A DNA stretch of 64,000 nucleotides, from the NCBI GenBank assembly GCA_024233935.1, contig JACKOY010000017.1, forward strand, positions 27,096-91,095. The letters run 5' to 3'. The notes beneath the pieces are model-generated. The model saw only the letters and a list, made by a program, of their open reading frames with translations. It was not told the DNA's origin and did no database searches. Of this stretch, positions 27,871 to 43,636 are shown piece after piece. Source of the DNA: Spirochaetales bacterium (lineage in GTDB: Bacteria; Spirochaetota; Leptospiria; Leptospirales; Leptonemataceae). The stretch's first letter is position 1, and each line of letters begins with the position of its first letter. Position numbers and translations under genes: made by a program.

Positions 27871-27900
27871 TTGTTTCTTCCCCGGGGACAGCCCTACAAT
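27871..27900 (+). promoter_or_regulatory. Candidate sigma70-like promoter for gltA (TTGTTT - 18 nt - TACAAT)
   Basis: Hexamers at 27871-27876 and 27895-27900, about 100 nt upstream of ATG 27997, in a T-rich stretch of the divergent intergenic region. Confidence 0.2.
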
Positions 27901-27996
27901 CTTGATATGAAAGACCATGCGGCCACGGCAGTGGGCCTTTCGCGCTGGCGAGCGCCGCAGGGAATTCAGACAACCACACAGGACGGAACGAGGCGT

Positions 27997-29283
27997 ATGG
28001 CAGGTGCAGCAAAGCTGGTTTACGATGGTCAGGAGCTTGAATTGCCGATCATTGAGGGAACGGAAAACGAGCGCGCGATCGATATCGGCAAGCTGCGCGG
28101 CACGACGGGCCTCATCACCGTTGACGAAGGCTTTGTAAACACCGGCTCGTGCAAAAGCGGCGTTACGTTCCTGGATGGCGAACAGGGCATCCTGCGCTAT
28201 CGCGGCTACCCCATTGAGGATCTCGCGGAGAAGTCCACGTTTTTAGAAGTCGCTTACCTGCTCATCTACGGCGAGCTTCCGACCAAAGAACAATACGAAG
28301 ATTTTCAGCACAGCATTACCGTGCACACCATGATCCACGAGGATCTAAAACGACTGTACGATGGCTATCCCAAAGACAGCCACCCCATGTCGATTCTCTC
28401 TTCTATGATCGTGACGCTTTCGGGTTATTATACGGATTCCTCGGACCCCTTGATTCCCATGCATCGCGAAATCTCCATGGCGCGACTGCTGGCCAAGACG
28501 CCAACTATCGCGGCTTATTCGTACAAAAAGTCCATCGGGCAGCCCTTTGTATACCCGCGCAACAATCTGAGCTACATCGGAAACTTCATGAACATGATGT
28601 TCTCGGTTCCTGCCACCGATTATGAAGTGGACCCGGTGATTGAGCGCGCGCTTGATACCCTTCTGATTCTGCACGCCGATCACGAGCAGAACTGCAGCAC
28701 GTCTACCGTTCGTCTGGTGGGCTCCAGTCGCGCCAATCTGTATGCGACCATTGCCAGCGGTGTCTGCGCTCTCTGGGGGCCGTTGCACGGTGGGGCGAAT
28801 CAGGCCGTCATCGAAATGCTGAGTCGCGTGCACGAAGACGGTGGCGATGCGAAAAAGTACATCGAACTTGCCAAAGACAAAAACTCAACCTTCCGGCTGA
28901 TGGGATTCGGTCACCGGGTTTACAAAAATTTCGACCCGCGGGCGCGCATCATCAAAAAAGCCTGCGACGACGTTTTGAAAAAGATGGGTGTGCACGATCC
29001 GCTGCTCGAAATCGCCAAGAAGCTCGAAGAGGCGGCGCTTGAAGACGAGTACTTTGTCGAACGAAAGCTCTATCCCAACGTGGATTTCTATTCGGGCATT
29101 ATCTACCGCGCGATTGGCATTCCGACCGACATGTTTACGGTCATGTTCGCCCTCGGTCGTATGCCGGGCTGGATTGCCCAGTGGAAGGAGATGATCGAGA
29201 ATCCGGGAACGCGCATTGGCCGTCCGCGTCAGGTCTATAATGGCGCCACCGAACGTCGTTATCAGGATATCGGGAAGCGCTGA
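27997..29283 (+). CDS. gltA: Citrate synthase
   Basis: 428 aa from ATG 27997 (RBS GGAACGAGG). Conserved blocks: LLIYGELPT, HADHEQNCSTSTVRLVGSS, GPLHGGAN, GFGHRVYKNFDPRA. Confidence 0.9.
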   Translation: MAGAAKLVYDGQELELPIIEGTENERAIDIGKLRGTTGLITVDEGFVNTGSCKSGVTFLDGEQGILRYRGYPIEDLAEKSTFLEVAYLLIYGELPTKEQYEDFQHSITVHTMIHEDLKRLYDGYPKDSHPMSILSSMIVTLSGYYTDSSDPLIPMHREISMARLLAKTPTIAAYSYKKSIGQPFVYPRNNLSYIGNFMNMMFSVPATDYEVDPVIERALDTLLILHADHEQNCSTSTVRLVGSSRANLYATIASGVCALWGPLHGGANQAVIEMLSRVHEDGGDAKKYIELAKDKNSTFRLMGFGHRVYKNFDPRARIIKKACDDVLKKMGVHDPLLEIAKKLEEAALEDEYFVERKLYPNVDFYSGIIYRAIGIPTDMFTVMFALGRMPGWIAQWKEMIENPGTRIGRPRQVYNGATERRYQDIGKR

Positions 29284-29669
29284 TGCGTATTCGCGTTGAA
29301 GATATTCGGGTACGCAATCGAATCCGGAGAGATCCAGGTCATCTGGCTGACTTGAAAGACAGCATGAATCGGCTGGGACTGCTCCAGCCGATTCTGATTG
29401 ACCCTCAGAACAACCTGGTCGCCGGCTTTCGGCGCCTGCAGTCCGCGCGCGAACTCGGCTGGGATACCATCGAAGCACGCATCATCGACGTGGAAGACAA
29501 ACGCGAGCGCCTCATTATCGAGGCTGAAGAGAACACGACCCGTCGCGATTTCACTCCCGAGGAACTGGAAAAGGCCGACCGCTTGCTGGAACGTTACAGC
29601 CATGAAGGCTTCTTCCGTCGTTTTCTGGCCTGGATTCTGGATCTGTTTGATCGCATTTTTCGAAGGTAG
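29283..29669 (+). CDS. ParB/Srx-like nuclease-domain protein (128 aa)
   Basis: ...IRVRNRIRRDPGHLADLKDSMNRLGLLQPILID... matches the ParB N-terminal domain pattern (conserved R-rich box, LLQPI). ATG overlaps the gltA stop (TGATG). Confidence 0.6.
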   Translation: MRIRVEDIRVRNRIRRDPGHLADLKDSMNRLGLLQPILIDPQNNLVAGFRRLQSARELGWDTIEARIIDVEDKRERLIIEAEENTTRRDFTPEELEKADRLLERYSHEGFFRRFLAWILDLFDRIFRR

Positions 29670-29687
29670 GGGGCGTAGTTGCCCCCT
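29668..29687. terminator. Hairpin AGGGGGC-gtagtt-GCCCCCT followed by CTTTA; candidate terminator between the convergent ParB-like gene and hsdR
   Basis: A perfect 7-bp GC-rich stem with a 6-nt loop, directly overlapping the ParB-like stop codon. Confidence 0.4.
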
Positions 29688-29690
29688 GCT

Positions 29691-32600
29691 TTAAGCCGCC
29701 TCCGCATTCTTCCGAATCCCCGCAACCACGGCCAGTATTCCTTCGACCTGCGGCTTCATGAAGAGGCCGGTCACGCCTTCGGAGTGCAGATCAGTGAATG
29801 GTGCCTCAAACAGCGCCTCCGGCTCGATCGCTCCATTCTGGGTCAGGTAGTTGATAATGCGGTCCAGGAAGGCGATCTGGTCGGCGGTCAGGTTCCCTGC
29901 CGCGAGGAAGTCGGCGAAGGCGGCCTTGGCTGCCATCCTATCGAGGCCCACGATACTGCGGATAAACAGGCCGAGCGGCTGGTCGCCGATCTCGCGCTCG
30001 TAGTCCTCCCGCGTCCCAAGAGCGCCGTCCTGCGAGAATAGAATCGCTTCAAGGTGCTGAAGGTCCGTGCTCGTCAACGGCTGGTTTTGCTTCAGCTTCC
30101 AGATTGTTGTATCGTCGTGTTCCAGTCCGCGAATGAGCTTCTCCACCCGACGTCGGTAGTTTTCCAGCCCCGGTTCGCGTTTGACCAGATCATCGCGCAT
30201 GATGACCGCGCCCGCCTCGTCGGTGAAGTCGGTGTACACGAGGCGCTGTGCGGCGGCTTTATCCAGCAGTTGAACAACCTCGCGCAGCTCGGATCGAATC
30301 GCTTCAATCTTCGGAACGGTGGCCGCTTTCCAGAAGGCGTCGTCTTGAAGCGGCCGGATCGTTGGCATGCGCTTCTCGATCGCCGGGATGTTCTTTTTCA
30401 GCTCCAGATTCATCGCGAGATCGCGAACCTTTGATTCCAGGGCGTCACGTCGCGAGCCCTCCGTGAGCATTTCGATTTGCAGATTGTGGATTAAAAGATC
30501 GAAGCGGGCGGCCTCCTCACTCTGATACGGATGAGAGATCAGCGGACTTACGTGCTCGGTTAGTTCCGCGACGTCAGATTCAGCGACCTTGTCCCACGCC
30601 TTGCGATCCATATATGGTCGAACAAATTTTTGATGAGGTCGCACCACGAAGCTTTCAGGATCCAGAGCGGCGACCTCATGATGCATTTGATCGAGCAATT
30701 GGCCGGCGTACCTGCGGTGTTCCAGATCATCACGCATGGCGCTTCGACGAATTTCCAGCGCCAGTATGAGCCGGCGATTGAAGATCTTCTGAGAGAGCGA
30801 AGGCTGCGCCACGGTCTCCATGCCTTTGGGATGCGCGTCGAAGAAGTCCAGGTTCCCGCAGAAGTCGAAGATCAGGAAGTGCTCTTTGTGCTGGCCCGGG
30901 CCAAATAGGTCTTCGCAGAGGCGCGTTCCGCGTCCGACCATCTGCCAGAACTTCACACGGGAGCGCACCATCTTGAAGAATACCAGGTTCACCACCTCGG
31001 GAATGTCCACGCCGGTATCGAGCATGTCCACCGATGCCGCAATGTGGGGGTCCGAGTTCTTCTTCTCGAAGTCTTCCATGAGGGAATCGACGTACTTGAC
31101 CTGGTTGTGGACCACGCGCATGAATTTTCCGGCGAGGTGAGGGTACAGCAGGTCGAAGCGGTCGCGGACAAATTCTGCGTGCCGCTGGTTCCTGGCGAAG
31201 ATGATGGTCTTGCCCAACCGTTCCCCGCCCGCGACTTTGATGCCGTGGTCCATGACATGGGCGAGCACGCGGTCCACTGTGTCCGCGTTGAAGAGCCAGC
31301 TATTCAGTGCGGATGAGTCGATTTCTTCCGGCAGGGTCCCGGTGTCCTCGTCGAAGAACTTCTCTTCGTATTCTTCCTGCTCCTCTTCGGTCAGGTCCGC
31401 GTACTTGATGCCCTCCCGCTGGAACTTGAGCGGGACGACGGCAGCCAGCGGCGGACAGAGGTACCTGTCGTTCACGCCTTCATCAAGGCCGTAGGCGAAC
31501 GTGGGCTGGCCCTCTTCGAGTTCCAGGAACTGATAGGTGTTGCGGGAGACCTCGTCGCGTGGTGTGGCGGTCAGGCCGATGATGAGACTGTCGAAGTAGT
31601 CGAAGATGGCGCCGTACTTTTTGTAGACGGAGCGGTGGACTTCATCGAGCCAGATGAGGTCGAAGTAGCCGGGGCCGAAGCGGGCCTGCCCTCCGGTTTT
31701 GCGCTCATCAATCGCATTCATGAGCGTCGGATAGGTGGAGATGACGACGCGGCTGTTGTCGTCCTCCTTCTCATCGAGCAGGTTCACGAGCGATGCATTT
31801 GGCAGGTGCTCCTTGAACGCCTTGTATGCTTGCGTCACGAGCTTGCGACGATCGGCCAGGAAGAGGACGCGGCGGACCCAGTTCGCCTTCATGAGCAGTT
31901 CGGTGATGGCCACAGCGGTGCGGGTCTTTCCGGTACCCATGCTCATGGCGAGCAGGCAGCGGCGACGGCGTTTGGTCAGGTCTTCGGTGACGCGGCGCAC
32001 GGCTTCAATCTGATAGGGACGGTTTACGATACCCTGATTGATGTCGGCCGTGGTGAGGTCCGCGCGCGTTTGCCTGCGATTCACCGCAAGCTGGAGTTCA
32101 TCCCGGGTGAGGAAGCCCTGCACCTGCCGGGGAGGATAGGAAGCCTTCTCGTCCCAGAACCAGGTCTCGTAGCCGTTGGAGTAGAAGATGAGCGGATAGC
32201 GGTCGGTCATCTGTTCCAGGCAGCGGGCATAAAGTTCGGCCTGTCGCTCGCCTTCGCGGGGGCTCTTCTTGGTGCGCTTAACTTCGATGACCGCCAGTGG
32301 AAGGCCATCGTCGCCCCAGAGCACGTAATCGGCGTAGCCCGTCCCGTCGTTCCTTCCCGAAGAGGTCGGCATGCCACGCACTTCGTATTCGCGGACGTTG
32401 GGGCCGTGGGGGTCCCAGCCCGCTTCGCGCAGCATGAGGTCAATGAAGAGGTCGCGGGTTTCGCTCTCGTTGTGGTCGAGCTTCTCGGTCTGCGCAGAGG
32501 CCACTTTCCGGTTCTTCGCCTTCAGAGACTGAAGCTCGGCACGGTAGCGTTCGACTTCCGCGCTGACTTTCGCGAGCGCCTCCTCATGCTCACGCGCCTT

Positions 32601-33095
32601 CGCATCGCGCGCTTCCAGATCCTTCTTGAGCTTCTGGAGTTCGGCGGCGCTCTTCTCGGCGGTCCCGGTTTTGGGTATGAGGTCCGGGTTGAAGGCCGGG
32701 ATGAAGGGCGCGTAGCTGGAGTAGAGTTTGGCAAACCAGGCCAGGAAGAGGTGCAGGTGCTTGAGAAGCAGAATCGCATTCTGAGCTTGCACGCGAAAGC
32801 CCGGATGGACGGCTTGATTGCCCAGCTTGCGGATGGCATTGACCGGCTGGAAGAGCTCAGGTGGCAGCAGGCGTTCCTTGAAGGACGGTTCGTGCATCAT
32901 GGCCGCGAGCGTGCGTTCGTACGGCGGTGTGAGCGAGTTGTCGTTCTCGAAGAGCCAGGTGAGGACGGCTTCGAGAGTGTAGCGGGCGTAGAAGACCGAC
33001 GTGCGCGGGTCGGCGTAGGCACTGACCTCGGCCTTGTTGGCAGAGTCGAAGAGGCCGCCCCAGTTCTGCTGGAGGTAGTCGAAGTTGGAGTTCAT
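29691..33095 (-). CDS. hsdR: Type I restriction enzyme R subunit (EcoKI-like), with EcoEI_R_C-type C-terminal domain
   Basis: MNSNFDYLQ... EcoKI-like N-terminus. Nuclease motif: region ...DYVLWGDDGLPLAVIEVKR. DEAD-box helicase motifs GTGKTRTA and DEVH. 1134 aa. Confidence 0.9.
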   Translation of the reverse strand: MNSNFDYLQQNWGGLFDSANKAEVSAYADPRTSVFYARYTLEAVLTWLFENDNSLTPPYERTLAAMMHEPSFKERLLPPELFQPVNAIRKLGNQAVHPGFRVQAQNAILLLKHLHLFLAWFAKLYSSYAPFIPAFNPDLIPKTGTAEKSAAELQKLKKDLEARDAKAREHEEALAKVSAEVERYRAELQSLKAKNRKVASAQTEKLDHNESETRDLFIDLMLREAGWDPHGPNVREYEVRGMPTSSGRNDGTGYADYVLWGDDGLPLAVIEVKRTKKSPREGERQAELYARCLEQMTDRYPLIFYSNGYETWFWDEKASYPPRQVQGFLTRDELQLAVNRRQTRADLTTADINQGIVNRPYQIEAVRRVTEDLTKRRRRCLLAMSMGTGKTRTAVAITELLMKANWVRRVLFLADRRKLVTQAYKAFKEHLPNASLVNLLDEKEDDNSRVVISTYPTLMNAIDERKTGGQARFGPGYFDLIWLDEVHRSVYKKYGAIFDYFDSLIIGLTATPRDEVSRNTYQFLELEEGQPTFAYGLDEGVNDRYLCPPLAAVVPLKFQREGIKYADLTEEEQEEYEEKFFDEDTGTLPEEIDSSALNSWLFNADTVDRVLAHVMDHGIKVAGGERLGKTIIFARNQRHAEFVRDRFDLLYPHLAGKFMRVVHNQVKYVDSLMEDFEKKNSDPHIAASVDMLDTGVDIPEVVNLVFFKMVRSRVKFWQMVGRGTRLCEDLFGPGQHKEHFLIFDFCGNLDFFDAHPKGMETVAQPSLSQKIFNRRLILALEIRRSAMRDDLEHRRYAGQLLDQMHHEVAALDPESFVVRPHQKFVRPYMDRKAWDKVAESDVAELTEHVSPLISHPYQSEEAARFDLLIHNLQIEMLTEGSRRDALESKVRDLAMNLELKKNIPAIEKRMPTIRPLQDDAFWKAATVPKIEAIRSELREVVQLLDKAAAQRLVYTDFTDEAGAVIMRDDLVKREPGLENYRRRVEKLIRGLEHDDTTIWKLKQNQPLTSTDLQHLEAILFSQDGALGTREDYEREIGDQPLGLFIRSIVGLDRMAAKAAFADFLAAGNLTADQIAFLDRIINYLTQNGAIEPEALFEAPFTDLHSEGVTGLFMKPQVEGILAVVAGIRKNAEAA

Positions 33096-33110
33096 CTACG
33101 TTCCGGGGCG

Positions 33111-33485
33111 CTACATAACCCTTTCGCTCTTGTGCAACACTGCTGCCAGTTTCTTGTCCAGCGTCCAAACGCGCAACTGCCGACGGCGTGCCTCCGCGAG
33201 CAATACAGCGTCGACCAGACCAATACCCTTTGCGCCGAACTTTTTCTCAAAGGCAAGACGCCCGCCTTCCACAATACCCTGGTTGCTCTGGGGGTCCTGG
33301 AGAGTCTCCCAGTAGGCGGTGACAAAGTCGGCCTCGGCCGTGCTCCTGCAGCCCTGCAGCAATTCACCAAAGACGAGCGCATGGACCCGGATCTGGCCGG
33401 CTTCGATCAATTCCCGGAGCTGTGTAAACACCGGCTCTTTGCGGCGAAAGAACTCCACCCAAACGGACGTATCAACCAGAATCAC
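33111..33485 (-). CDS. vapC: PIN-domain toxin VapC
   Basis: MILVDTSVWVEFF... 124 aa. 4-nt overlap with the upstream antitoxin. Ends 15 nt before the hsdR start. Confidence 0.8.
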   Translation of the reverse strand: MILVDTSVWVEFFRRKEPVFTQLRELIEAGQIRVHALVFGELLQGCRSTAEADFVTAYWETLQDPQSNQGIVEGGRLAFEKKFGAKGIGLVDAVLLAEARRRQLRVWTLDKKLAAVLHKSERVM

Positions 33486-33700
33486 GTGACTTTCCGGTTC
33501 AAAGCCCTCACCTGCGCCGCCGTAAAGTCAGTCCGAAACTGAAGGGGCCGCCGATTCAGCTTCTCGTTCAGGCGGCGCAGCTTCGCCAGCCGCACCCATT
33601 CACCGAGCGCCAAATTCAGGGATTCCGTAATCGTTTCCCCGCCCGTATATTCCTGAACCTCACGGACCAGTTCATCCGGAAGTAGTGCGGTCACCTTCAT
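33482..33700 (-). CDS. vapB: VapB-type antitoxin (72 aa)
   Basis: MKVTALLPDELVREVQEYTGGETITESLNLALGEWVR... is typical of the small RHH/DUF2191-like VapB antitoxins. ATG at 33700 chosen (the ORF-track start at 33736 adds 12 aa). Confidence 0.6.
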   Translation of the reverse strand: MKVTALLPDELVREVQEYTGGETITESLNLALGEWVRLAKLRRLNEKLNRRPLQFRTDFTAAQVRALNRKVT

Positions 33701-33831
33701 ACTCTGGAGTATACGATAGAGCAGCGTATGCTGCAACGTCTTTTTGAGTGCGCGTGACCGTCACGGCCTCCAGCGGTAGCGCTGGTGCACGCTGATGCGA
33801 AGGTCACGCGGCCTCAAAGAAGACCGGTGCT

Positions 33832-34356
33832 TTAGTGGTTCCGATCGCGGTATTCCAGCAACCCGCGGTCGACGAGAAAAGGCTCAACTCGCAGGCTGAG
33901 CAGCTGATGAAGACCGCATGCTGAAGCGATAGACATCTTCCCTGCTCGGTCTTTGATCTCCTGAGAAATGACCGTTGGGATATCGCCTGTTTTTTTTATC
34001 TTGATAGCCATAGCAAGAATGTACGGGTCCGCTTCCTCGGGTTGGTCTGGTTTGTTGGGGTCGAGAATGTGCCGCGTCTGCGGGTGCTCCAGCACTCTCC
34101 GTACTTCCTCAAAAACCGGCTCAAATCGGGTAGCTTGCTTCTTGTATAGCCTTGCCCAGTGATAGGGAAGGAACCCAGGGTCCGTACCGCCCCGCTTCTC
34201 CAGCTCCGCCACAACCTGTGAAGGATACACCAAGGCATCACTCTGCAGCAGTTCAGTCAACCCCTGAAAGATAGCCTTCTCTCCGGCCTTGCCCACGATG
34301 GCACGTATTTCGCCAAGCGCGGATGTATCGAACACCCAGATCGCCTGACCTGCCAT
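33832..34356 (-). CDS. DUF4411-family PIN-like nuclease (predicted toxin/effector)
   Basis: 174 aa. WVFDTSAL... N-terminal acidic motif of the PIN-like DUF4411. ATG overlaps the stop of the upstream ImmA gene by 1 nt (ATGA). This pairing is recurrent inside type I restriction-modification loci. Confidence 0.65.
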   Translation of the reverse strand: MAGQAIWVFDTSALGEIRAIVGKAGEKAIFQGLTELLQSDALVYPSQVVAELEKRGGTDPGFLPYHWARLYKKQATRFEPVFEEVRRVLEHPQTRHILDPNKPDQPEEADPYILAMAIKIKKTGDIPTVISQEIKDRAGKMSIASACGLHQLLSLRVEPFLVDRGLLEYRDRNH

Positions 34357-35516: not shown

Positions 35517-35627
35517 AGCGCCGCCACTGCCGATTTGCATTCTTGAATTCTGTCAGCATTCATACCATCATGGACGTCTGACACGATTAACTTCATCAGG
35601 GCTGCCTGCCAACGACAGCTTTGCACA

Positions 35628-36809
35628 TTATGGACCATTGTTTTCATTGAAGTCAAGTTCTCCCTTGAAGGCGCGTTGCAGAAGAGAGTTGAAGAGGTCA
35701 TCGGAAGCCATGATTGCCTTGGCATTGCGAGACCGCACCGCCGCGAGCTTCTCGGTAGCCCGATCCCATGCGGCCTGCAATTCGGCGGGGGGAAGAATCA
35801 GCGCGACATCCTTCAGTCGACCATGGGAAATGAGAGGCTGTCCCGCCTGGCTCTTGTACTGGTTTAGGTCCAGCAGTGTTAAGAGGCGATTCAGGAAGCC
35901 GAGGCTGAACTGATCCCGATTCTCGGCGACATAGAGCGCATTGTCTGAGACCCAGCACGGGCCCGTGGCGTGATAACTATTCCCACAGTAGACGCCGACT
36001 CGCCCGAGGATCACTGTGGGCTCGCTCACAAGTGGCGTCGTCGTGTAGCCAATGATTCCGTTTCCGCCGTACACCGGCACGGGACCTTGCTCACTGAGCG
36101 TTCGATTTCGGATGCTTTCGCCAGACTTAAGTCTCAAAGACTCTGCGAACGGCCGCACTTCCCACCCCTTCGGATTCGTCACCGGGTCCCCGAACATATC
36201 CAGAAACACCGACTGGAGCAATTCATCCAGCCTGGCGATGACCTGCTTCCGCTTGCGGCGGATGGAGTCGGCCTTGTCGAGAACCGCGGCGATTCGCTTC
36301 TGGATGTCGAGGGGCGGGAGGGGGATTGGCAGCCCTTTGAGTTTGGTGCTGTTCACACCCGGCTGCGTCGAACCACTTGCCGCGCCGACCACAGCTCCCC
36401 AGTACTGCGGCGTCTGGAAGAAGTAGCTCAAGAAGCCAGGGTCCAAGCGCTGCAGGTCCGGGCGAACCCGTATAAGGTACGAGGCAAAGACGGCATCCTT
36501 GGGGCACTCCCTGATGAGAAACGATTTCCCCGTTGTGGCCCCGGTACGAGCGAAAACGATGTCGCCGGGTGCTAGCCTGTACTTCGCCACGTCTTCCCGC
36601 GAACATCGGCAGTACGGAACGCCACTCCAATCAACATGGCCATTCTGGATGTCCGTTATGCGGAGAAAGCGAGGCCCGACCTCCGCTGCCGAAGCAGACT
36701 CCGTATGTCCGTAGTCAATCTTCTCGGAAAGCTCGCTCAGGCTATGAGTAGGCCAGCTCAAGGTGTGCCCCCTTGGTCGGAATCCAAGCTCTCCATGAAA
36801 CACCGCCAT
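35628..36809 (-). CDS. hsdS: Type I restriction-modification specificity subunit, two target-recognition domains
   Basis: N-terminal ...LSWPTHSLSELSEKIDYG (HsdS opening). Central conserved spacer LPPLDIQKRIAAVLDKADSIRRKRKQ. C-terminal repeat ...LPPAELQAAWDRATEKLAAVRSRNAKA. The start is uncertain because the first 52 nt overlap the upstream gene. Confidence 0.85.
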   Translation of the reverse strand: MAVFHGELGFRPRGHTLSWPTHSLSELSEKIDYGHTESASAAEVGPRFLRITDIQNGHVDWSGVPYCRCSREDVAKYRLAPGDIVFARTGATTGKSFLIRECPKDAVFASYLIRVRPDLQRLDPGFLSYFFQTPQYWGAVVGAASGSTQPGVNSTKLKGLPIPLPPLDIQKRIAAVLDKADSIRRKRKQVIARLDELLQSVFLDMFGDPVTNPKGWEVRPFAESLRLKSGESIRNRTLSEQGPVPVYGGNGIIGYTTTPLVSEPTVILGRVGVYCGNSYHATGPCWVSDNALYVAENRDQFSLGFLNRLLTLLDLNQYKSQAGQPLISHGRLKDVALILPPAELQAAWDRATEKLAAVRSRNAKAIMASDDLFNSLLQRAFKGELDFNENNGP

Positions 36810-37396
36810 TTGCGAATGACAGGCGCAAGTCGCGACAGGATGCGGATAAGTACGAAGGTGCGATAGTTCTGATAGCTATCTCCCGCAAGCTCAAGATCGC
36901 GTGTCAGTCGTGCCTCCTTGTCTTCGTCAGTGTGCAGTGTCTCGCCGAATAGCTGGGTTTCCAGAGTTTGCCGAATCGCCTGCCCGTGAAACAAGCCAAG
37001 TTTGTAGTCCCCCGGCTCCGACTCTGGATGAATTAGAGCCGATTCTTGCAATTCCAGGATAGCTTTCCAGCGGCTCCGCAGGGCCGCGCTATGGTCCTTG
37101 ATTTCCTGCGGGAATCGACCATCCTGAATCCAATCGTCAGCTGCCGCAATCGACGTCGGCTCTTTGCGCTGATACAGGAAGCGCAGCCGCCGGAGGGTGT
37201 TGTGCAGCGATTCGGTTAGGCTAACGAGGCTTTCGTCAGCGTCGAGTGCCAACTGATATTCACCGCTAAATGTCATCCCGAACTTCTTCTTCCGCGGTGG
37301 CGTATAGTTCGCGATGATTCGGTCCTCTTCAAACTCACGGACGCGACGCAGAAACGCATCAAGGCGAAATGCTGTTTCATTGGGGCTGCGACTCAC
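36758..37396 (-). CDS. Hypothetical 212-aa protein, translationally coupled (ATGA) to the upstream GmrSD-like gene; no recognisable domain
   Basis: The ORF has coding-like composition. Its ATG overlaps the stop of the DUF262/DUF1524 gene. It is predicted soluble and charged. Its function is unknown. Confidence 0.5.
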   Translation of the reverse strand: MSRSPNETAFRLDAFLRRVREFEEDRIIANYTPPRKKKFGMTFSGEYQLALDADESLVSLTESLHNTLRRLRFLYQRKEPTSIAAADDWIQDGRFPQEIKDHSAALRSRWKAILELQESALIHPESEPGDYKLGLFHGQAIRQTLETQLFGETLHTDEDKEARLTRDLELAGDSYQNYRTFVLIRILSRLAPVIRKWRCFMESLDSDQGGTP

Positions 37397-37422
37397 TTCA
37401 ACATCCCCGCCAGTTCGTTCAG
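37391..37422. repeat. Copy A of a 32-nt direct repeat (3' end of the GmrSD-like gene); pairs with 39597..39628
   Basis: ACTCACTTCAACATCCCCGCCAGTTCGTTCAG differs from ACTCACTTCAGCATCCCCGCCAGCTCGTTCAG by 2 substitutions, both synonymous. On the minus strand both copies encode ...LNELAGMLK*. Confidence 0.8.
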
Positions 37423-39591
37423 GCGAGTTGGCCCCACCAGGTCAGAGAAGATGCGCTCCGCCCTTTGTACCACCAACGCTTTGAACCGTTCGCGGTTCTC
37501 CTCTTCAAACCAATCATGCTTATTCGTTGAGATGTTCTTCCAACCCTCCACGGTATCGGTAGCGATATGGGATGCATTCGCCAGATCGTCATCATCACAG
37601 AGTCGGTACCACTGCAACCTTCTCTTCACCGACAAATGCCGACCCTCGAACCGGAGTTTGTCGCCGGGAGCCAGGTCCTGGTCGCTTCGGTTCAGTTCTT
37701 TCGGCCATACGCGCAGATTGCCAATGCTTCCTTGCAGAAGGTATCTCATCGTAACGTCATCCCAAAAGGCCCTGGGGATGTCTCTGATCCCACGCATGTT
37801 CACACTGGCCGATGGGACAATATGATCAAGATCGTAAGGTGTGTCCTCTCGGCGCAGTTGGAAGGCCGCCGGGTCGTAACCCCCGTACCAGCGATTGATC
37901 CAGGACCGCTGAACGTAGAGCAGAGCGTCACCGGAAGACTTGAGCATTTCGCTGAAGACACTATCGCCAACAGGGCGCAGGCCAGTAGCATACTGTTCGG
38001 TTGAGAGCACCTGAAAGCCTATGCGTTCCTCGTCGTTCGTTCTTTTCAAAACTGCATCATAGATCGCTTCAAACATGCCCTCGGTTTTTGCAGGCGCGCT
38101 ACGGGCCACCCGGAAAATGGCGCGAACCAGGCTTTCCCGTGCTCTGTGTCCCCCGCGGCCAAAAAAGAAGTGCATATAGAGCGCAAGCCGTATCAGGTCA
38201 TTCCTCACCAAGTCGGGAGAGATATCTTTCCCGTACACGCAGGCACAAGCCACGTGCCAATAATGCCAGTCGAGTCTGGCCACCAACGGAATCGGGAGGC
38301 CGGGATCATCCCCACCCTTGTCCGGCGCGTACAGAATGGCATTGCGACATTGGATAAGCGACTCGGTGAAAGGTCCTTTTCTGTGGTGCCCGGCGTATAC
38401 GGCGCGCAACTGGGCAATGACCTGGTCTATATCATGCTGGTCGCCGGTGAAGATGCGGTTGTACTGCTTGCTATTGAGCGCAACTACATCGGGGGCGCGA
38501 TCCGCCGGCTCTTCCTCTTCTTCTTGTTCTTCATCGTTGCCTATCAACGATTCCGCTGCCGACCCGCTTGTGGCAGCCATTGCCAGTCGTAGAGAAAGAT
38601 GCACGATTCGCAATGGTGTCATCAGCCGACCGAATTCCCGATTCGCAAAAACCGTCCACACCATGTCGTGGAACTCGGGCCATTTCATCTTGAGGGCGGA
38701 GTAGAATAGTTCATCGGGGCCCATCACGACACCCTGAGAATTGAGGCGATTGAAAGCAGTGTTCAAGTCACCGATATTCGACAGATTGTAAACGATATGG
38801 ATCGGAATGCGCGCCTCACGCAAAACCTGAATCGCACGCGTCAATGAGCTCAGTCGTGCCCGTAGAGCTTCGACATTCTCTACGTAGCGAGAACGAAGGC
38901 TGGGATGCAGATGTTCGATTTGCAAGGGATCAAAGGGGTCGGCTTCCGAAGCATGCGCCAGCCATTCCGCAACAGGCACCGGTAGCTTGGCCGCCAACGG
39001 AAATGACCGGAGCAACATTGATCCGGAGTCTTGCTGGAAGGCGTGCCGATTGGAGAATCCGAGTGGCTCCAGCATCTCAATCTCTTTAGGATGATCGTAG
39101 GGAATAGTTCCTCCCCACGGTCGCAGGGTTGTCGTCACATAGAACGCGAGATCGCTCTCGCCATGGTCCGCTTCCCCTATATCGACCCAAAGCCTTTCAA
39201 TCGCACCCACTCTGGTATCTCGAAATCCCAACGAGACGGCAATGCTCCTTTGCTGACCGTCGAGAATGAAGACCTCTTGGCCGGTGAGCGCTCGTGAAGA
39301 GTGCGCGCTATCCCTCACAGACGATTGCAGGGAGCGAATTCGCAGGTTGCTTTCGGCGAAGTTCTCTGCGGGGCACAACAACAAGGAACCAATCGGGAAT
39401 CCTCGAAACAACGAATCCCACAGCCGCGACAGCCTGTCCTCATCCCAGACTGCATCCCTTTGAAATGCAGGCAGCTTGAGCAGTGCGTCTTCGCCGTCGT
39501 TGATTTCGGCCGCCAACTCCTGTATCCCAATGCTGGCAAGACTCTGCCGGTCCCGAAGTATTCTGGCGAGGTCAAATTCCGAACTTGTCAT
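37393..39591 (-). CDS. GmrSD-family type IV (modification-dependent) restriction endonuclease-like protein: DUF262 (ParB-like NTPase) + DUF1524 (His-Me finger nuclease)
   Basis: N-terminal LPAFQRDAVWDEDRLSRLWDSLFRGFPIGSLLL is the DUF262 signature. C-terminal DLDHIVP...GNLRVWPKELNRS is the DUF1524/HNH-like motif. 732 aa. Confidence 0.75.
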   Translation of the reverse strand: MTSSEFDLARILRDRQSLASIGIQELAAEINDGEDALLKLPAFQRDAVWDEDRLSRLWDSLFRGFPIGSLLLCPAENFAESNLRIRSLQSSVRDSAHSSRALTGQEVFILDGQQRSIAVSLGFRDTRVGAIERLWVDIGEADHGESDLAFYVTTTLRPWGGTIPYDHPKEIEMLEPLGFSNRHAFQQDSGSMLLRSFPLAAKLPVPVAEWLAHASEADPFDPLQIEHLHPSLRSRYVENVEALRARLSSLTRAIQVLREARIPIHIVYNLSNIGDLNTAFNRLNSQGVVMGPDELFYSALKMKWPEFHDMVWTVFANREFGRLMTPLRIVHLSLRLAMAATSGSAAESLIGNDEEQEEEEEPADRAPDVVALNSKQYNRIFTGDQHDIDQVIAQLRAVYAGHHRKGPFTESLIQCRNAILYAPDKGGDDPGLPIPLVARLDWHYWHVACACVYGKDISPDLVRNDLIRLALYMHFFFGRGGHRARESLVRAIFRVARSAPAKTEGMFEAIYDAVLKRTNDEERIGFQVLSTEQYATGLRPVGDSVFSEMLKSSGDALLYVQRSWINRWYGGYDPAAFQLRREDTPYDLDHIVPSASVNMRGIRDIPRAFWDDVTMRYLLQGSIGNLRVWPKELNRSDQDLAPGDKLRFEGRHLSVKRRLQWYRLCDDDDLANASHIATDTVEGWKNISTNKHDWFEEENRERFKALVVQRAERIFSDLVGPTRLNELAGMLK

Positions 39592-39596
39592 GCGTA

Positions 39597-39628
39597 ACTC
39601 ACTTCAGCATCCCCGCCAGCTCGTTCAG
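39597..39628. repeat. Copy B of the 32-nt direct repeat (3' end of hsdM)
   Basis: See copy A. It encodes the HsdM C-terminus ...KELNELAGMLK*. Confidence 0.8.
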
Positions 39629-41077
39629 CTCCTTCTGAATCTCCGCTTCCATCTTCTGGATGTCGGCGATAATCTTCTTGGGCGGGTCGTACTCGATTTC
39701 GTCATGCACGACCTCTTTGTAGCGATTCACGGACAGGTCGTAGTTGTTCTGTCGAATCTCATCCACCGGGACGAAGAAGCTCTGGTCCGTCCGTTTGCGC
39801 TTCTTCTCCCCGTCCAGATTCTGCCAGCGTTTCAGGACGTCCGGCAGGTTGTTGTTCTCGTGCTTCGAAGTATCCAGCGGAGTGCGCTTGTCATCGAGCG
39901 AGAAGCCGTCCGCCTGCATGTCGTAGAACCAGACCTGGTCCGTCCCGCCCGAGTTGGTCTTCGTGAAGATGAGGAAGGCCGTCGAGACTCCGGCGTAAGG
40001 CTTGAAGACTCCGGAAGGCATCTTCACCACCGCCTGAAGCTGATGCTCGTCGATGAGCTTTTTGCGAATCCCCACATGCGCCCGCGACGACCCGAAGAGC
40101 ACCCCGTCTGGCACAATGCAGGCACACCGTCCGCCGACTTTCAGGAGATTCAGGAATAGTGCCAGGAACAAGAGCTCCGTTTTCTTCGTCTTTACTGTCT
40201 GGAGCAGGTCTTTGGCCACCGTGGAGTAGTCGAGCGAGCCCTTGAAGGGCGGATTGGCCAGCACTACCGAGAACTGATCCCGTACCGTTGAAGCCGCCTC
40301 CGAGAGCGCGTCTTTCGAGATGATGTTCGGGTTCTCAACACCGTGCAACAGCATGTTCATCACACCGATGCGGAGCATGGTCACATCGAACTCGATGGCG
40401 TGGAACATGTCCGAGTTGAAGTGTGCCAGCTTCTTCTTGTCGTTGAACATGCCCTCGTGGTTGTCCCGCAGATACTCGCCAAAGGCGATCAGGAAGCCGA
40501 AGGTCCCGGCCGCCGGGTCGCAGACCGTGTCCTCGGGAGTCGGGGCCAGCATATCGACCATGAGGCGGATGATGTGGCGCGGAGTGCGGAACTGACCATT
40601 CTGCCCGGCCGATGCAATCTTCGAAAGCAGGTACTCGTACAGGTCTCCCTTCGTGTCGCGCCGCTCCATCGGGATCTCCGAGAGCGCGGAGACTGTTCGC
40701 TCCAGTAGATGCGGAGTGGGAATCATGAAGGTGGCGTCTTTCATGAGGCGGGCATAGCCGCTGTCTTCGTTGCCGTGCAGGTTCTTCATGAACGGGAAGA
40801 CCTCGGTGCTCATGACTTTGTACATCTCCGCCGCCTCCATGTCCTTGAAGCGGGACCAGCGGAGATGCTGCTGCTTCTTGTTGAAGACCGGGTCTTCAAT
40901 CTGGGGCTTGCCGAGAGTATTGGCCTTCTTCTCCCGCGCGGTATGGATGTCGTCCAGGCGCTTGATGAACAGGAGATACGTAATCTGTTCGATCACGGTC
41001 AACGGGTTTGAGATTCCCCCGGTCCACATGCCTTCCCAGAGGCGGTCTATCTTACTGCGGAGTTCTCCGGTGATCAT
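39599..41077 (-). CDS. hsdM: Type I restriction-modification N6-adenine DNA methyltransferase subunit
   Basis: MITGELRSKIDRLWEGMWTGGISNPLTVIEQITYLLFIKRLDD (HsdM N-domain). AdoMet motif I: DPAAGTFGFL. Motif IV: NPPF. 492 aa. Confidence 0.9.
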   Translation of the reverse strand: MITGELRSKIDRLWEGMWTGGISNPLTVIEQITYLLFIKRLDDIHTAREKKANTLGKPQIEDPVFNKKQQHLRWSRFKDMEAAEMYKVMSTEVFPFMKNLHGNEDSGYARLMKDATFMIPTPHLLERTVSALSEIPMERRDTKGDLYEYLLSKIASAGQNGQFRTPRHIIRLMVDMLAPTPEDTVCDPAAGTFGFLIAFGEYLRDNHEGMFNDKKKLAHFNSDMFHAIEFDVTMLRIGVMNMLLHGVENPNIISKDALSEAASTVRDQFSVVLANPPFKGSLDYSTVAKDLLQTVKTKKTELLFLALFLNLLKVGGRCACIVPDGVLFGSSRAHVGIRKKLIDEHQLQAVVKMPSGVFKPYAGVSTAFLIFTKTNSGGTDQVWFYDMQADGFSLDDKRTPLDTSKHENNNLPDVLKRWQNLDGEKKRKRTDQSFFVPVDEIRQNNYDLSVNRYKEVVHDEIEYDPPKKIIADIQKMEAEIQKELNELAGMLK

Positions 41078-41233
41078 GGTTGGTTGCTGCCCTGGTTCCT
41101 GATTTCCGACGAGCTTGCAGGCTGCCCGGGCTCTGGCAACTCACCTTCGTCAAAAGACTACAATTCCGGTAGCTGCGGCCCGTTTCTTCAACCGGCGAGT
41201 ATCATTCTCTCAGCATGGGAGGCGAGTCTGGGT

Positions 41234-41264
41234 GCGGTATGTGCCACGATTTGTCACATACCGC
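41234..41264. promoter_or_regulatory. Perfect 10-bp inverted repeat GCGGTATGTG-N11-CACATACCGC upstream of hsdM; candidate operator
   Basis: Seen directly. Lies 157-187 nt upstream of the hsdM start, in the 292-nt intergenic region that must hold the island promoter. Confidence 0.3.
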
Positions 41265-41369
41265 GCCCCATTCCCAGTTCGTCGGGCGCTTCTAGGAATC
41301 CGGCCAGAGCCTTGAGCATCGCTGCATTTATAGAATTCCGGCGCAGGCTCCCGCAAACTCCAATCAGTT

Positions 41370-43543: not shown

Positions 43544-43636
43544 CAGCCAGAGGTCCCGACCGCTTCGTCGGTCTTTGATCGAAGCGCCACAGTAGCGGAG
43601 AAAATGTTCATCGACGTTTTCCGAATCGTACCGGGC

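What the first reader, a model, noticed from the sequence alone, without database searches (positions are those of the whole stretch)
29283..41369. Composite defence island: one type I restriction-modification operon carrying three nested accessory defence/TA modules
All nine genes from hsdM (start 41077) to hsdR (end 29691) lie on the minus strand. They have 1-8-nt overlaps or gaps of 125 nt or less.

Order: hsdM, GmrSD-like DUF262/DUF1524, orphan 212-aa gene, hsdS, XRE-HTH/ImmA peptidase, DUF4411 PIN-like, vapB, vapC, hsdR.

That places a methylation-targeting type I system, a type IV enzyme, and two toxin/abortive-infection-type pairs in one apparent transcription unit. The cluster is bounded by a 292-nt promoter region with a perfect inverted repeat at one end, and by a ParB-like nuclease gene plus hairpin at the other.

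Insertion of defence cargo between type I subunit genes is a known phenomenon. This particular combination, with its 212-aa orphan, is not one I can match to a described system.
Basis: partly seen in the sequence, partly recalled or inferred. Interest (0 to 1): 0.7.

Follow-up and report, generated by a model that had tools for sequence, protein, structure and literature searches.

The report
Type I restriction operon stuffed with defence cargo
A spirochaete's three-gene DNA restriction system has picked up four extra units between its genes (an enzyme predicted to cut modified DNA, two toxin-antitoxin pairs and one unknown gene); this kind of nesting is already well documented, but a small duplicated scar shows how one of the pieces was slotted in.

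Summary
Nine co-directional minus-strand genes run hsdM (41077) to hsdR (29691) in the stated order.

hsdM, hsdS, hsdR, the DUF262 N-domain, the M78 peptidase and the VapC PIN domain have solid HMM support. The DUF1524, DUF4411 and VapB calls are sub-threshold but fit motifs and context.

- 36 of 56 related type I operons carry cargo between hsdM and hsdR.
- GmrSD_N, M78(+DUF4411) and PIN cargo each recur in that set.
- Published work describes GmrSD-like and toxin-antitoxin systems embedded in type I operons.
- A single transcript is untested.

New points:
1. The DUF262 gene is bracketed by a 32-nt direct repeat (30/32) of the hsdM 3' end. Both proteins therefore end in LNELAGMLK, and the next gene keeps the native ribosome-binding site and overlapping stop/start.
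2. The same duplication (31-75 nt) occurs in 7 of 11 related operons with cargo at the hsdM-hsdS junction, and in 0 of 66 without.
3. The 212-aa orphan is a real but lineage-restricted gene. Its only relative sits alone in Leptonema illini, so it is not a DUF262 partner.

Verdict: new member of a known kind, moderate interest.

The parts
39599..41077 (-). hsdM, type I N6-adenine methyltransferase subunit (492 aa)
   Evidence: PADLOC MTase_I PDLC03021 at 1.3e-191, full length. Pfam N6_Mtase 8.7e-61 and HsdM_N 1.6e-15. NPPF and AdoMet-binding motifs are visible in the translation. GC3 is 0.82 against a window background of 0.67 +/- 0.04.
39597..39628 (-). Copy 1 of the 32-nt direct repeat: the native hsdM 3' end (codons LNELAGMLK, stop, GT)
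   Evidence: the repeat finder family D3; sequence read. The tail EL(E/A)GML(K/R)* is conserved across the HsdM family.
37393..39591 (-). DUF262 / GmrSD-BrxU-like predicted type IV restriction enzyme (732 aa)
   Evidence: Pfam GmrSD_N 4.7e-19. BrxU structure 7p9k: 1.6e-7 with the protein, 1.9e-19 with the subfamily profile. C-terminal GmrSD_C is sub-threshold at 6.6e-4. Across 24 subfamily members these are invariant: QR, DGQQR, F..N and DHI/GN/N634, the last set being the His-Me finger.
37391..37422 (-). Copy 2 of the 32-nt repeat, fused in frame to the end of the DUF262 gene. Its TGA overlaps the GTG start of orf212.
   Evidence: 30/32 identical to copy 1, with start-to-start spacing of 2206 nt. 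22 of the 24 aligned subfamily members end in [WF]xxW; the window protein and its closest relative P0003 are the two that do not, and the window protein ends in the hsdM tail instead.
36758..37396 (-). orf212, a lineage-restricted soluble all-helical protein of unknown function (212 aa, GTG start)
   Evidence: No family hit. One relative among 1.84 billion cluster representatives: P0083, 36% identity, E 1.5e-22. AF2 model has 7 helices, pLDDT 61. No transmembrane segment, pI 6.0.
35628..36761 (-). hsdS, specificity subunit (377 aa, TTG start, 4-nt overlap with orf212)
   Evidence: PADLOC Specificity_I 2.6e-72. Pfam Methylase_S matches two stretches. Start taken from gene calls on six contigs and from N-terminal alignment to relatives.
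34356..35516 (-). RmrA-like HTH + M78 (ImmA/IrrE) zinc-peptidase antitoxin/regulator (386 aa)
   Evidence: PADLOC RmrA 6.1e-22 over aa 21-384. Pfam Peptidase_M78 4.2e-12. HELGH motif in the translation.
33832..34356 (-). Divergent DUF4411-like PIN-type predicted toxin (174 aa), 1-nt overlap with the M78 gene
   Evidence: Pfam DUF4411 3.1e-4, below cut-off but covering 140 of 159 profile positions. hhalign against two bona fide DUF4411 cargo proteins gives E 7.6e-4, with the four acidic motifs aligned. The context matches the published HTH-DUF955 + DUF4411 arrangement (PMC5499597).
33482..33694 (-). vapB-like antitoxin (70 aa)
   Evidence: Pfam VapB_antitoxin is sub-threshold: 5.5e-4 for the 84-aa ORF and 1.3e-3 for the 70-aa gene call. 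It has a 4-nt overlap with vapC. The palindrome GTGACgGTCAC lies upstream.
33111..33485 (-). vapC PIN-domain toxin (124 aa)
   Evidence: Pfam PIN 1.4e-10, 42.3 bits against a cut-off of 23.6. NCBIfam TA_toxin_VapC 2.8e-12.
29691..33095 (-). hsdR, restriction/translocase subunit (1134 aa) with an N-terminal DUF4145 and a C-terminal EcoEI_R_C domain
   Evidence: PADLOC REase_I 2.4e-176. Pfam hits: HSDR_N, ResIII, Helicase_C, EcoEI_R_C, DUF4145. NCBIfam EcoAI/FtnUII 2e-77, below cut-off.
41078..41369 (-). 292-nt spacer upstream of hsdM, with a near-perfect inverted repeat at 41234-41264
   Evidence: As RNA the spacer folds with z = -2.9. No promoter consensus match was found in it.
29669..29686 (.). 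GC-rich hairpin between the convergent hsdR and ParB_N stop codons
   Evidence: Sequence read: GGGGGC-gtagtt-GCCCCC.

Best explanation
This is an intact type I restriction-modification operon (hsdM-hsdS-hsdR). Its HsdR belongs to an EcoAI/EcoEI-like family that carries an N-terminal DUF4145 domain. The host is a Leptonema-like spirochaete. The operon has been used as a landing platform for four separate cargo units at its two inter-subunit junctions.

**Cargo.**
- At the hsdM-hsdS junction: a BrxU/GmrSD-type DUF262 + His-Me-finger enzyme, predicted to be a type IV restriction enzyme, and a lineage-specific helical protein, orf212.
- At the hsdS-hsdR junction: a RosmerTA-type pair (HTH-M78 peptidase RmrA-like protein plus a divergent DUF4411 PIN-like toxin) and a VapBC pair.

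**How it most likely works (inferred).**
- The type I enzyme methylates host DNA and cuts unmodified invading DNA.
- The DUF262 enzyme covers phages that escape by modifying their DNA.
- The two toxin-antitoxin pairs either abort infection or stabilise the locus.

**How the DUF262 gene was added (the structure is shown; the mechanism is inferred).**
- The insertion duplicated the last 32 nt of hsdM.
- hsdM therefore keeps its native C-terminus.
- The gene after the insert keeps the native GGCGGGG ribosome-binding site and the overlapping stop/start (GTGA) that couples its translation to the gene before it.
- The DUF262 reading frame now runs into the second copy and borrows the last nine hsdM codons and the stop.
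- The same footprint recurs with unrelated cargo in related operons. It is therefore a general way, or a selection filter, by which cargo enters this junction without breaking the operon.
For: **Gene identities and intact catalytic motifs:**

**Cargo is variable in this family.**
- 80 hsdM relatives (55-67% identity) from many phyla were retrieved.
- 56 of them show both hsdM and hsdR. 20 are compact M-S-R operons, 36 carry cargo, and 15 have more than 4 kb between hsdM and hsdR.
- Cargo families include GmrSD_N (3), M78 (3), PIN (3), DUF4411 (1), YhcG/DUF1016, integrases with spare hsdS genes, MNT/HEPN and Fic.
- The closest DUF262 relatives sit in other type I or DISARM-like loci, or alone, and are never followed by an orf212-like gene.

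**The duplication.**
- The 32-nt repeat is 30/32 identical and ends 2 nt past the stop codon in both copies.
- The tail EL(E/A)GML(K/R)* is native to the HsdM family. It replaces the C-terminal end of the DUF262 protein: 22 of 24 subfamily members end in [WF]xxW there, though the closest relative P0003 also lacks that motif.
- Seven of 11 related loci with hsdM-hsdS cargo carry a second copy of the hsdM 3' end (31-75 nt, alignment score 49-130). All 66 loci without such cargo score 32 or less.
- An eighth locus, L049, has a consensus-like ELERMLK* remnant.
- The cargo inside these duplications differs: YhcG, DUF3800-like, VapBC-like, UPF0175/DUF3368-like, and an 8-gene block. This argues for several independent events.

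**Composition.** hsdM and hsdR have GC3 of 0.82 and 0.77. Host background is 0.67 +/- 0.04, and the cargo genes are 0.61-0.70.

**Precedents.**
- Translational coupling of hsdM and hsdS is established for EcoKI (PMC3510504).
- Embedding in type I systems is documented.
Against: - No functional or transcript data exist for this organism.
- The DUF1524, DUF4411 and VapB assignments are below the curated cut-offs.
- The 174-aa protein had no database homologue and its AF2 model failed at pLDDT 47.
- Three related loci with hsdM-hsdS cargo (L031, L085, L088) show no tail copy, so duplication is frequent but not obligatory.
- No repeat flanks orf212 or the two toxin-antitoxin modules, so how they arrived is unknown.
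- Some loci with duplications may share ancestry, for example the YhcG cases L038, L071 and L074.
- All 23 contigs that carry this exact hsdM have the same arrangement, so no cargo-free variant was seen.
Confidence: 0.8

Rival explanations
1. The nine genes form one integrated multi-protein system. The accessory proteins work physically with the HsdMSR complex, making this a new composite system rather than independent modules.
For: Tight spacing and co-orientation. The DUF262 protein carries the HsdM C-terminal nonapeptide. TgvAB protected better when the surrounding type I cluster was present (PMC11411939).
Against: - Each module occurs independently in other contexts.
- 20 of 56 family members work with M-S-R alone.
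- In related loci the tail copy often lies outside any cargo ORF, for example L074 and L091. The in-frame fusion here therefore looks incidental.
Confidence: 0.07
2. The two toxin-antitoxin pairs are selfish addiction modules that stabilise the locus, or simply hitch-hike on it. They are not anti-phage defences. This reading can coexist with the main explanation.
For: - VapBC pairs are classic addiction modules.
- The 111-nt and 137-nt gaps with promoter- and operator-like elements suggest autonomous, autoregulated expression.
- Toxin-antitoxin genes are common cargo in relatives.
Against: RosmerTA-type RmrA systems and DarTG2 embedded in a type I system have shown anti-phage activity. Embedded genes are enriched for defence functions.
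Confidence: 0.3
3. DUF262 and orf212 form an obligate two-gene type IV system, analogous to TgvAB.
For: 4-nt overlap between the two genes. TgvAB is a precedent for a two-protein GmrSD-like system embedded in a type I operon.
Against: - Six loci holding three DUF262 relatives, at 49%, 33% and 28% identity, contain no orf212-like gene.
- The only orf212 homologue lies alone, near IS elements and rpoD, in Leptonema illini.
- The hsdM-tail copy sits exactly between the two genes, which marks them as separate insertions.
Confidence: 0.08
4. orf212 is not a gene; it is a chance ORF or a remnant.
For: No family hit, and a low-confidence structure model.
Against: - It has a homologue at 36% identity over 185 aa, E 1.5e-22, in another genus.
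- It has exact 4-nt overlaps with both neighbours.
- Its composition is host-like.
Confidence: 0.04

Closest known systems
TgvAB, a GmrSD-like type IV system embedded in the type I R-M operon of Vibrio cholerae VPI-2 (PMC11411939); also RloF in Campylobacter jejuni
   Same: A DUF262-family enzyme nested between type I subunit genes on the same strand. The QR, DGQQR and FxxxN motifs and a His-Me-finger nuclease are conserved. The proposed logic is complementary: type I acts on unmodified DNA and type IV on modified DNA.
   Different: - Here it is a single 732-aa fused protein of a rare subfamily, not two proteins.
- It sits at the hsdM-hsdS junction. RloF lies between hsdR and hsdS, and tgvAB is described as similarly positioned.
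- It is bracketed by a duplication of the hsdM 3' end.
- Activity is untested.
BrxU / GmrSD (structure 7p9k; PADLOC HEC-05)
   Same: The N-terminal DUF262 matches BrxU at 1.9e-19 with the subfamily profile. HEC-05 models hit at 3.3e-15. The domain order is DUF262, helical linker, HNH-like C-terminus.
   Different: Only the first ~130 residues align by sequence. The C-terminal domain is below the Pfam cut-off. The protein is ~150 residues longer than BrxU and ends in a grafted HsdM tail.
RosmerTA (RmrT/RmrA) and the HTH-DUF955 + DUF4411 three-component toxin-antitoxin arrangement (Millman 2022 preprint; PMC10440598; PMC5499597)
   Same: An HTH + M78 zinc peptidase (PADLOC RmrA 6.1e-22) is followed directly, with a 1-nt overlap, by a small PIN-like protein. 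The same pair occurs at the hsdS-hsdR junction of related operons L050, L052 and L065.
   Different: The toxin is very divergent: DUF4411 is below cut-off, no PADLOC RmrT model hits it, and no database homologue was found. The gene order is antitoxin first. Toxicity is untested.
EPEC RRDM island: DarTG2 embedded between hsdS and hsdR, controlled by RptR (PMC12255303)
   Same: Toxin-antitoxin cargo lies between hsdS and hsdR in a co-directional type I cluster with an upstream regulatory region.
   Different: No RptR-like first gene is present here. The upstream element is a 13-nt-arm palindrome rather than TAGCTA repeats. There are two toxin-antitoxin pairs plus cargo at the other junction.
'Guilt-by-embedding' cargo in type I R-M, BREX and DISARM systems (10.1101/2024.01.29.577857)
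   Same: The general phenomenon: cassettes of defence genes nested in multi-gene systems. Several cargo families seen in relatives here are PADLOC candidates, for example PDC-S02 (YhcG).
   Different: A term search of that paper found no mention of recombination, no relevant mention of duplication, and nothing on how cassettes enter. The hsdM-tail duplication reported here bears on that question.

Membership tests
Type I restriction-modification system | HsdM with an N6-adenine methyltransferase domain and an HsdM_N domain, with intact NPPF and AdoMet motifs | tested here: met
   (1.3e-191). The motifs ANPPFKG and DPAAGTFGF are in the translation.
Type I restriction-modification system | HsdS with two target-recognition domains | tested here: met
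   Pfam Methylase_S matches two stretches. PADLOC Specificity_I 2.6e-72.
Type I restriction-modification system | HsdR with a PD-(D/E)xK nuclease region, an SF2 motor and a C-terminal domain | tested here: met
   HSDR_N, ResIII, Helicase_C and EcoEI_R_C hits. PADLOC REase_I 2.4e-176. The motifs GTGKT, DEVH and D...EVK are in the sequence.
Type I restriction-modification system | Sequence-specific methylation, and ATP-dependent restriction of unmethylated DNA | not testable with these tools
   Needs a methylome and restriction assays.
Type IB (EcoAI/EcoEI) subfamily | The equivalog-level NCBIfam EcoAI/FtnUII model scores above its cut-off | tested here: not met
   NF046051 scores 261 bits against a cut-off of 550. 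PRK11448 scores 319 against 729. The HsdR is related to this subfamily but is not a member by this test.
GmrSD / BrxU type IV restriction enzymes | N-terminal DUF262 with the QR, DGQQR and FxxxN motifs | tested here: met
   Pfam GmrSD_N 69.7 bits against a cut-off of 33.2. The motifs are invariant in 24 subfamily members. BrxU match.
GmrSD / BrxU type IV restriction enzymes | C-terminal DUF1524 His-Me-finger nuclease | tested here: inconclusive
   PF07510 scores 20 bits against a cut-off of 23, E 6.6e-4. However, D589-H590-I591, G624-N625 and N634 are invariant in the subfamily.
GmrSD / BrxU type IV restriction enzymes | Modification-dependent DNA cleavage | not testable with these tools
SspE-like or other specificities are not excluded.
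RosmerTA | RmrA: HTH plus an ImmA/IrrE (M78) zinc peptidase with HExxH | tested here: met
   PADLOC RmrA 6.1e-22 over aa 21-384. Pfam M78 46.4 bits against a cut-off of 22. HELGH motif present.
RosmerTA | An adjacent toxin (RmrT) that RmrA neutralises, and anti-phage activity | not testable with these tools
   An adjacent 174-aa gene is present, but no PADLOC model hits it. Toxicity is untested.
DUF4411 (PIN-like) | Pfam PF14367 scores above the gathering cut-off | tested here: not met
   21.0 bits against a cut-off of 23.5. BLASTP against a bona fide DUF4411 is not significant.
DUF4411 (PIN-like) | Four conserved acidic residues of the PIN-like site, and a position downstream of an HTH-DUF955 gene | tested here: inconclusive
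   hhalign gives E 7.6e-4 and probability 25%, with D/E/D/E motifs aligned over 142 columns. The context matches PMC5499597. The AF2 model was unusable.
VapBC type II toxin-antitoxin | VapC PIN-domain toxin | tested here: met
   PIN 42.3 bits against a cut-off of 23.6.
VapBC type II toxin-antitoxin | A small upstream antitoxin gene that overlaps the toxin gene | tested here: inconclusive
   There is a 70-aa gene with a 4-nt overlap. VapB_antitoxin scores 19-20 bits against a cut-off of 23.4.
Embedded defence cargo in a type I operon | Accessory genes lie between the subunit genes on the same strand, and are variable among related operons | tested here: met
   36 of 56 related operons carry cargo, of many different families.

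The most novel reading that the evidence does not exclude
The duplicated hsdM 3' end is the footprint of a general cassette-exchange route at the hsdM-hsdS junction. I did not find this route described in the literature I searched.

In this reading, cargo travels as a unit that carries 30-75 nt of an hsdM tail. It enters by recombination with the resident tail, in a Campbell-like manner, and can leave the same way. This would make this widespread type I family an integrase-free, integron-like platform in which every cassette inherits the native ribosome-binding site and stop/start coupling.
Probability: 0.25. Interest if true: 0.65.

Novelty: new member of a known kind. Interest (0 to 1): 0.38.

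Why it matters
The composite locus is one more example of defence genes nested in a type I operon, so it adds little on its own.

Two things have some value:
- **The hsdM-tail duplication.** It gives a concrete, sequence-level clue to how cargo is inserted at an overlapping, translationally coupled gene junction without inactivating either neighbour. It is also a simple signature that could be searched genome-wide to date and count embedding events.
- **Two nearly family-less genes** (orf212 and the 174-aa PIN-like gene). By their position they are candidates for defence-related functions.

Tried and rejected
- **orf212 sequence searches.** A word-indexed search found only the protein itself. 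Full HMMER against 1.84 billion representatives found one relative. Pfam, PADLOC and NCBIfam gave nothing, even at E = 5.
- **The 174-aa protein.** The homologue search found nothing. BLASTP against a real DUF4411 was not significant. The AF2 model had pLDDT 47, so no fold search was attempted.
- **A third, eroded hsdM-tail copy at the orf212-hsdS junction.** Rejected; alignment is no better than shuffled sequence, P = 0.2-0.5.
- **Flanking duplications around the hsdS-hsdR cargo.** None in the window. Only one related locus, L036, has a 29-nt duplication of the hsdR start.
- **ParB_N as part of the island.** Only one weak hit next to a related operon (L018), and the gene overlaps the citrate synthase stop. 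Not included.
- **The Leptonema 237-aa neighbour of the orf212 homologue.** It has no relative in the window and no Pfam hit. Its N-terminus looks lipoprotein-like by eye.
- **A second site for the upstream palindrome** (an operator shared with the toxin-antitoxin modules). None found.
- **Strain-level presence/absence of cargo.** All 23 contigs read have the same arrangement.
- **Literature on hsdM 3'-end duplication.** Nothing found in the searched library.

Full report
**1. What is there**

ORF listing and translation, together with independent gene calls on six metagenome contigs of the same strain, confirm nine co-directional minus-strand genes.

| Gene | Coordinates | Junction to next gene |
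|---|---|---|
| hsdM | 41077-39599 | 7-nt gap |
| DUF262 | 39591-37393 | 4-nt overlap |
| orf212 | 37396-36758 | 4-nt overlap |
| hsdS (TTG start) | 36761-35628 | 111-nt gap |
| HTH-M78 | 35516-34356 | 1-nt overlap |
| 174-aa gene | 34356-33832 | 137-nt gap |
| vapB | 33694-33482 | 4-nt overlap |
| vapC | 33485-33111 | 15-nt gap |
| hsdR | 33095-29691 | (end) |

The organism is a Leptonema-like spirochaete MAG. A source names the orphan as 'Spirochaetales bacterium H7A21_16630'. The rest of the window is ordinary chromosome: signalling proteins, an RND pump and citrate synthase. It has no tRNA genes, and none of the flanking ORFs I scanned is an integrase or transposase.

**2. Gene identities**

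The type I core is unambiguous and looks intact.
- HsdM: PADLOC MTase_I 1.3e-191.
- HsdS: Specificity_I 2.6e-72, with two Methylase_S stretches.
- HsdR: REase_I 2.4e-176, with HSDR_N, ResIII, Helicase_C and EcoEI_R_C plus an N-terminal DUF4145.
- The NPPF, AdoMet, Walker A, DEVH and D...EVK motifs are visible in the translations.
- The HsdR is EcoAI/EcoEI-like but falls below the NCBIfam equivalog cut-offs.

The 732-aa protein is a GmrSD/BrxU relative.
- GmrSD_N 4.7e-19.
- BrxU 7p9k: 1.6e-7 with the protein and 1.9e-19 with a 24-member subfamily profile.
- The QR, DGQQR, F..N and His-Me-finger residues (DHI, GN, N634) are invariant in the subfamily.
- The DUF1524 model itself stays just under its cut-off at 6.6e-4.

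The other cargo genes:
- The 386-aa protein is an RmrA-type HTH + M78 peptidase (PADLOC 6.1e-22, HELGH motif).
- The 174-aa protein is only a weak DUF4411 match. Pfam gives 3.1e-4 and hhalign gives 7.6e-4 with the four acidic motifs aligned.
- It does sit where published HTH-DUF955 + DUF4411 modules place the toxin (PMC5499597).
- VapC is a clear PIN domain. VapB is sub-threshold but correctly placed.

**3.

The repeat finder reported a 32-nt direct repeat, 30/32 identical, at 39597-39628 and 37391-37422.
- These are the 3' ends of hsdM and of the DUF262 gene.
- Both proteins end in LNELAGMLK, both genes end in AAGTGAGT, and the repeat brackets exactly the DUF262 gene.
- The tail is native to HsdM. 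Across 80 relatives the protein ends in EL(E/A)GML(K/R)*.
- Of 24 aligned DUF262 subfamily members, 22 end in [WF]xxW. The window protein and its closest relative P0003 are the two exceptions, and the window protein ends in the hsdM tail.
- The tail DNA contains GGCGGGG eight nucleotides upstream of the GTG that overlaps the stop codon. That is the ribosome-binding site and the stop/start overlap for the next gene.
- hsdM-hsdS overlap with translational coupling is established for EcoKI (PMC3510504).

The insertion therefore left hsdM with its own C-terminus. It also left the gene after the insert, now orf212, with the native translation-initiation context.

**4. The scar is recurrent**

I retrieved 80 loci with an HsdM 55-67% identical to this one, from many phyla, and mapped hsdS and hsdR in them.
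- 56 loci show both hsdM and hsdR.
- 20 are compact M-S-R operons, with about 1.1-1.35 kb between the hsdM stop and the hsdR start.
- 36 carry cargo.
- 15 have more than 4 kb between hsdM and hsdR. The window has 6.5 kb.

Eleven related loci have cargo at the hsdM-hsdS junction.
- Seven carry a second copy of the hsdM 3' end: L035 (two extra copies), L038, L071, L074, L080, L083 and L091.
- Where the hsdM-proximal end of the copy is preserved (L035, L074, L080, L091) it stops at the stop/ATGA overlap just before the next gene. In L038 the last 16 nt of the two copies have diverged.
- The copies are 31-75 nt long, with local alignment scores of 49-130.
- The 66 loci without hsdM-hsdS cargo all score 32 or less, and shuffled controls score 28 or less.
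- L049 has a consensus-like ELERMLK* remnant before hsdS.
- Three loci have no copy: L031, L085 and L088.

The cargo enclosed by these duplications differs. I read these identities from the translations rather than from per-ORF HMM results:
- YhcG/DUF1016 nucleases.
- A DUF3800-like gene plus a repeat-like ORF.
- A VapBC-like pair.
- A UPF0175/DUF3368-like pair.
- An eight-gene block.

I therefore infer several independent events. The variable repeat length argues against a fixed attachment site. It fits two other models:
- Recombination of tail-bearing cassettes with the resident tail.
- Rare insertion events that are filtered by the need to keep both the HsdM C-terminus and the downstream initiation region.

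At the hsdS-hsdR junction the genes are normally separated by a spacer. There, only one of 36 loci (L036) shows an analogous duplication, and the window shows none.

**5. Is the combination new?**

Pfam and PADLOC scans of the 122 cargo ORFs from related operons gave these counts:

| Cargo family | Count |
|---|---|
| DUF1016_N (YhcG-type, PADLOC PDC-S02) | 4 |
| Integrases (spare hsdS genes also occur as cargo, Methylase_S 3) | 4 |
| GmrSD_N | 3 |
| Peptidase_M78 | 3 |
| PIN | 3 |
| IS200 | 3 |
| MNT/HEPN-type | 2 |
| Fic | 2 |
| DUF4411 | 1 |

- An M78 + DUF4411 pair sits at the hsdS-hsdR junction in L050, and an M78 gene at the same junction in L052 and L065.
- DUF262 genes sit there in L044 and L068.
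- The closest relative of the window's DUF262 protein (49% identity) lies next to a different type I family that also carries a DUF4411 gene. Others lie in a DISARM-like cluster or alone.
- Published work describes GmrSD-like TgvAB embedded in a type I operon, and notes that GmrSD homologues are frequent in type I loci (PMC11411939).
- It also describes DarTG2 between hsdS and hsdR (PMC12255303).
- A systematic catalogue lists 17,432 genes embedded in BREX, DISARM and type I systems (10.1101/2024.01.29.577857).
- A TA + hsdMS + GmrSD operon has been reported in Belliella (PMC5499597).

The exact nine-gene combination may be unique. It is nevertheless a mix from a known pool, placed on a known platform.

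**6. The orphan**

orf212 is a real gene.
- It has one relative among 1.84 billion cluster representatives: a 202-aa protein at 36% identity over 185 aa, E 1.5e-22.
- That relative is in assembly GCA_000243335.1, which I recognise as Leptonema illini DSM 21528. It lies alone, between IS copies, an unrelated 237-aa gene and rpoD. It is not in an R-M locus.

orf212 is therefore lineage-restricted, not a widely mobile defence gene, and not a conserved DUF262 partner.
- It is soluble, mildly acidic and predicted all-helical.
- Fold search gave only generic bundles.
- The tail copy lies between DUF262 and orf212, so orf212 was already downstream of hsdM when DUF262 arrived (inferred).
- No repeat marks the entry of orf212 itself.
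- Its function remains open. My best guess is an independent fourth cargo unit whose translation is coupled to the gene upstream.

**7. Composition**

hsdM and hsdR have GC3 of 0.82 and 0.77, which is +3.6 and +2.5 sd above the window background of 0.666 +/- 0.043 (n = 30 ORFs). The cargo genes lie at 0.61-0.70, within the host range. The core and the cargo therefore have different histories, which fits stepwise assembly.

**8. Transcription**

This cannot be settled here.
- The consensus scan found no promoter in the 292-nt upstream spacer.
- It found one sigma-70-like match (TTGACT-18-CATAAT, 35656-35627) just upstream of the M78 gene. The number of matches equals the shuffle expectation.
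- The spacer before vapB holds a perfect GTGACgGTCAC palindrome and a TATACT box.
- Toxin-antitoxin modules are usually autoregulated, so I expect internal promoters in addition to any read-through.
- The upstream 13-nt-arm palindrome is unique in the window. It could be an operator, but no candidate regulator heads the cluster.

**9. Verdict**

This is a new member of a known kind. The extra value lies in the hsdM-tail duplication, which I did not find described in the searched literature. It deserves a systematic survey.

Noticed in passing
window 32751-33095 (HsdR aa 1-115) and all related loci L016-L095: HsdR carries an N-terminal DUF4145 domain (Pfam 6.9e-8). PADLOC candidate PDC-M16A hits aa 1-215 at 8.1e-22. 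Nearly all of the 56 related HsdR proteins align from residue 1-3, so this extra domain is a trait of the whole type I family. Its role is unknown.
   Followed up: partly
window 29691-41077: hsdM (GC3 0.82) and hsdR (0.77) are compositional outliers against the window background of 0.67 +/- 0.04. The embedded cargo genes (0.61-0.70) look host-like. This suggests the core and the cargo have different origins or ages.
   Followed up: partly
L035:6327-7631 and L038:12495-12770: In two related operons, one unit between hsdM-tail copies is a ~90-105-codon ORF beginning M..FFR.EGPK..S.GQ. It looks like the translation of a short repeated element rather than a gene. L035 has three tail copies in a row, so cassettes can stack at this junction.
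   Followed up: partly
L036:12657-13853: One related operon has hsdS-hsdR cargo (an antisense 330-aa ORF) flanked by a 29-nt duplication (96.6% identity) of the first bases of hsdR. This mirrors the hsdM-tail duplication at the other junction.
   Followed up: no
L101 (contig end) and L100: Among 23 contigs carrying this exact hsdM, one ends 4 nt after the hsdM stop and another about 150 nt after it. This could be ordinary fragmentation, or an assembly-graph branch at the repeat caused by a subpopulation without the DUF262 cassette. It is not testable without reads.
   Followed up: no
window 29283-29669 (+): A 128-aa ParB_N-only protein starts on the last base of the citrate synthase gene (27871-29283) and converges on hsdR. 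It is more likely co-expressed with gltA than part of the island. Pairing a ParB/Srx-fold protein with citrate synthase is unusual.
   Followed up: partly
window 41234-41264: A palindrome, GCGGTATGTGcCA-cgatt-TGtCACATACCGC, is unique in the 64-kb window. It lies about 155 nt upstream of hsdM and about 105 nt downstream of the GNAT gene stop. It has no T-run, so it looks more like an operator than a terminator. The 292-nt spacer folds with z = -2.9.
   Followed up: partly
window 42296-44731 (-): Upstream of the island, separated from hsdM by a 130-aa ORF and the GNAT gene, lie an SPFH/Band_7_1 + SHOCT protein (364 aa) and a 415-aa protein with zinc-ribbon and HEAT/LRV-repeat hits. I did not test whether they have any defence association.
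   Followed up: no
L012:9139-10609 (assembly GCA_000243335.1, Leptonema illini): The only homologue of orf212 sits beside two IS (DDE_Tnp_1) copies and a 237-aa gene with no Pfam hit, whose N-terminus looks like a lipoprotein signal. It lies just upstream of rpoD-dnaG-rpsU. That is a mobile-element-rich spot, but not an R-M locus.
   Followed up: partly
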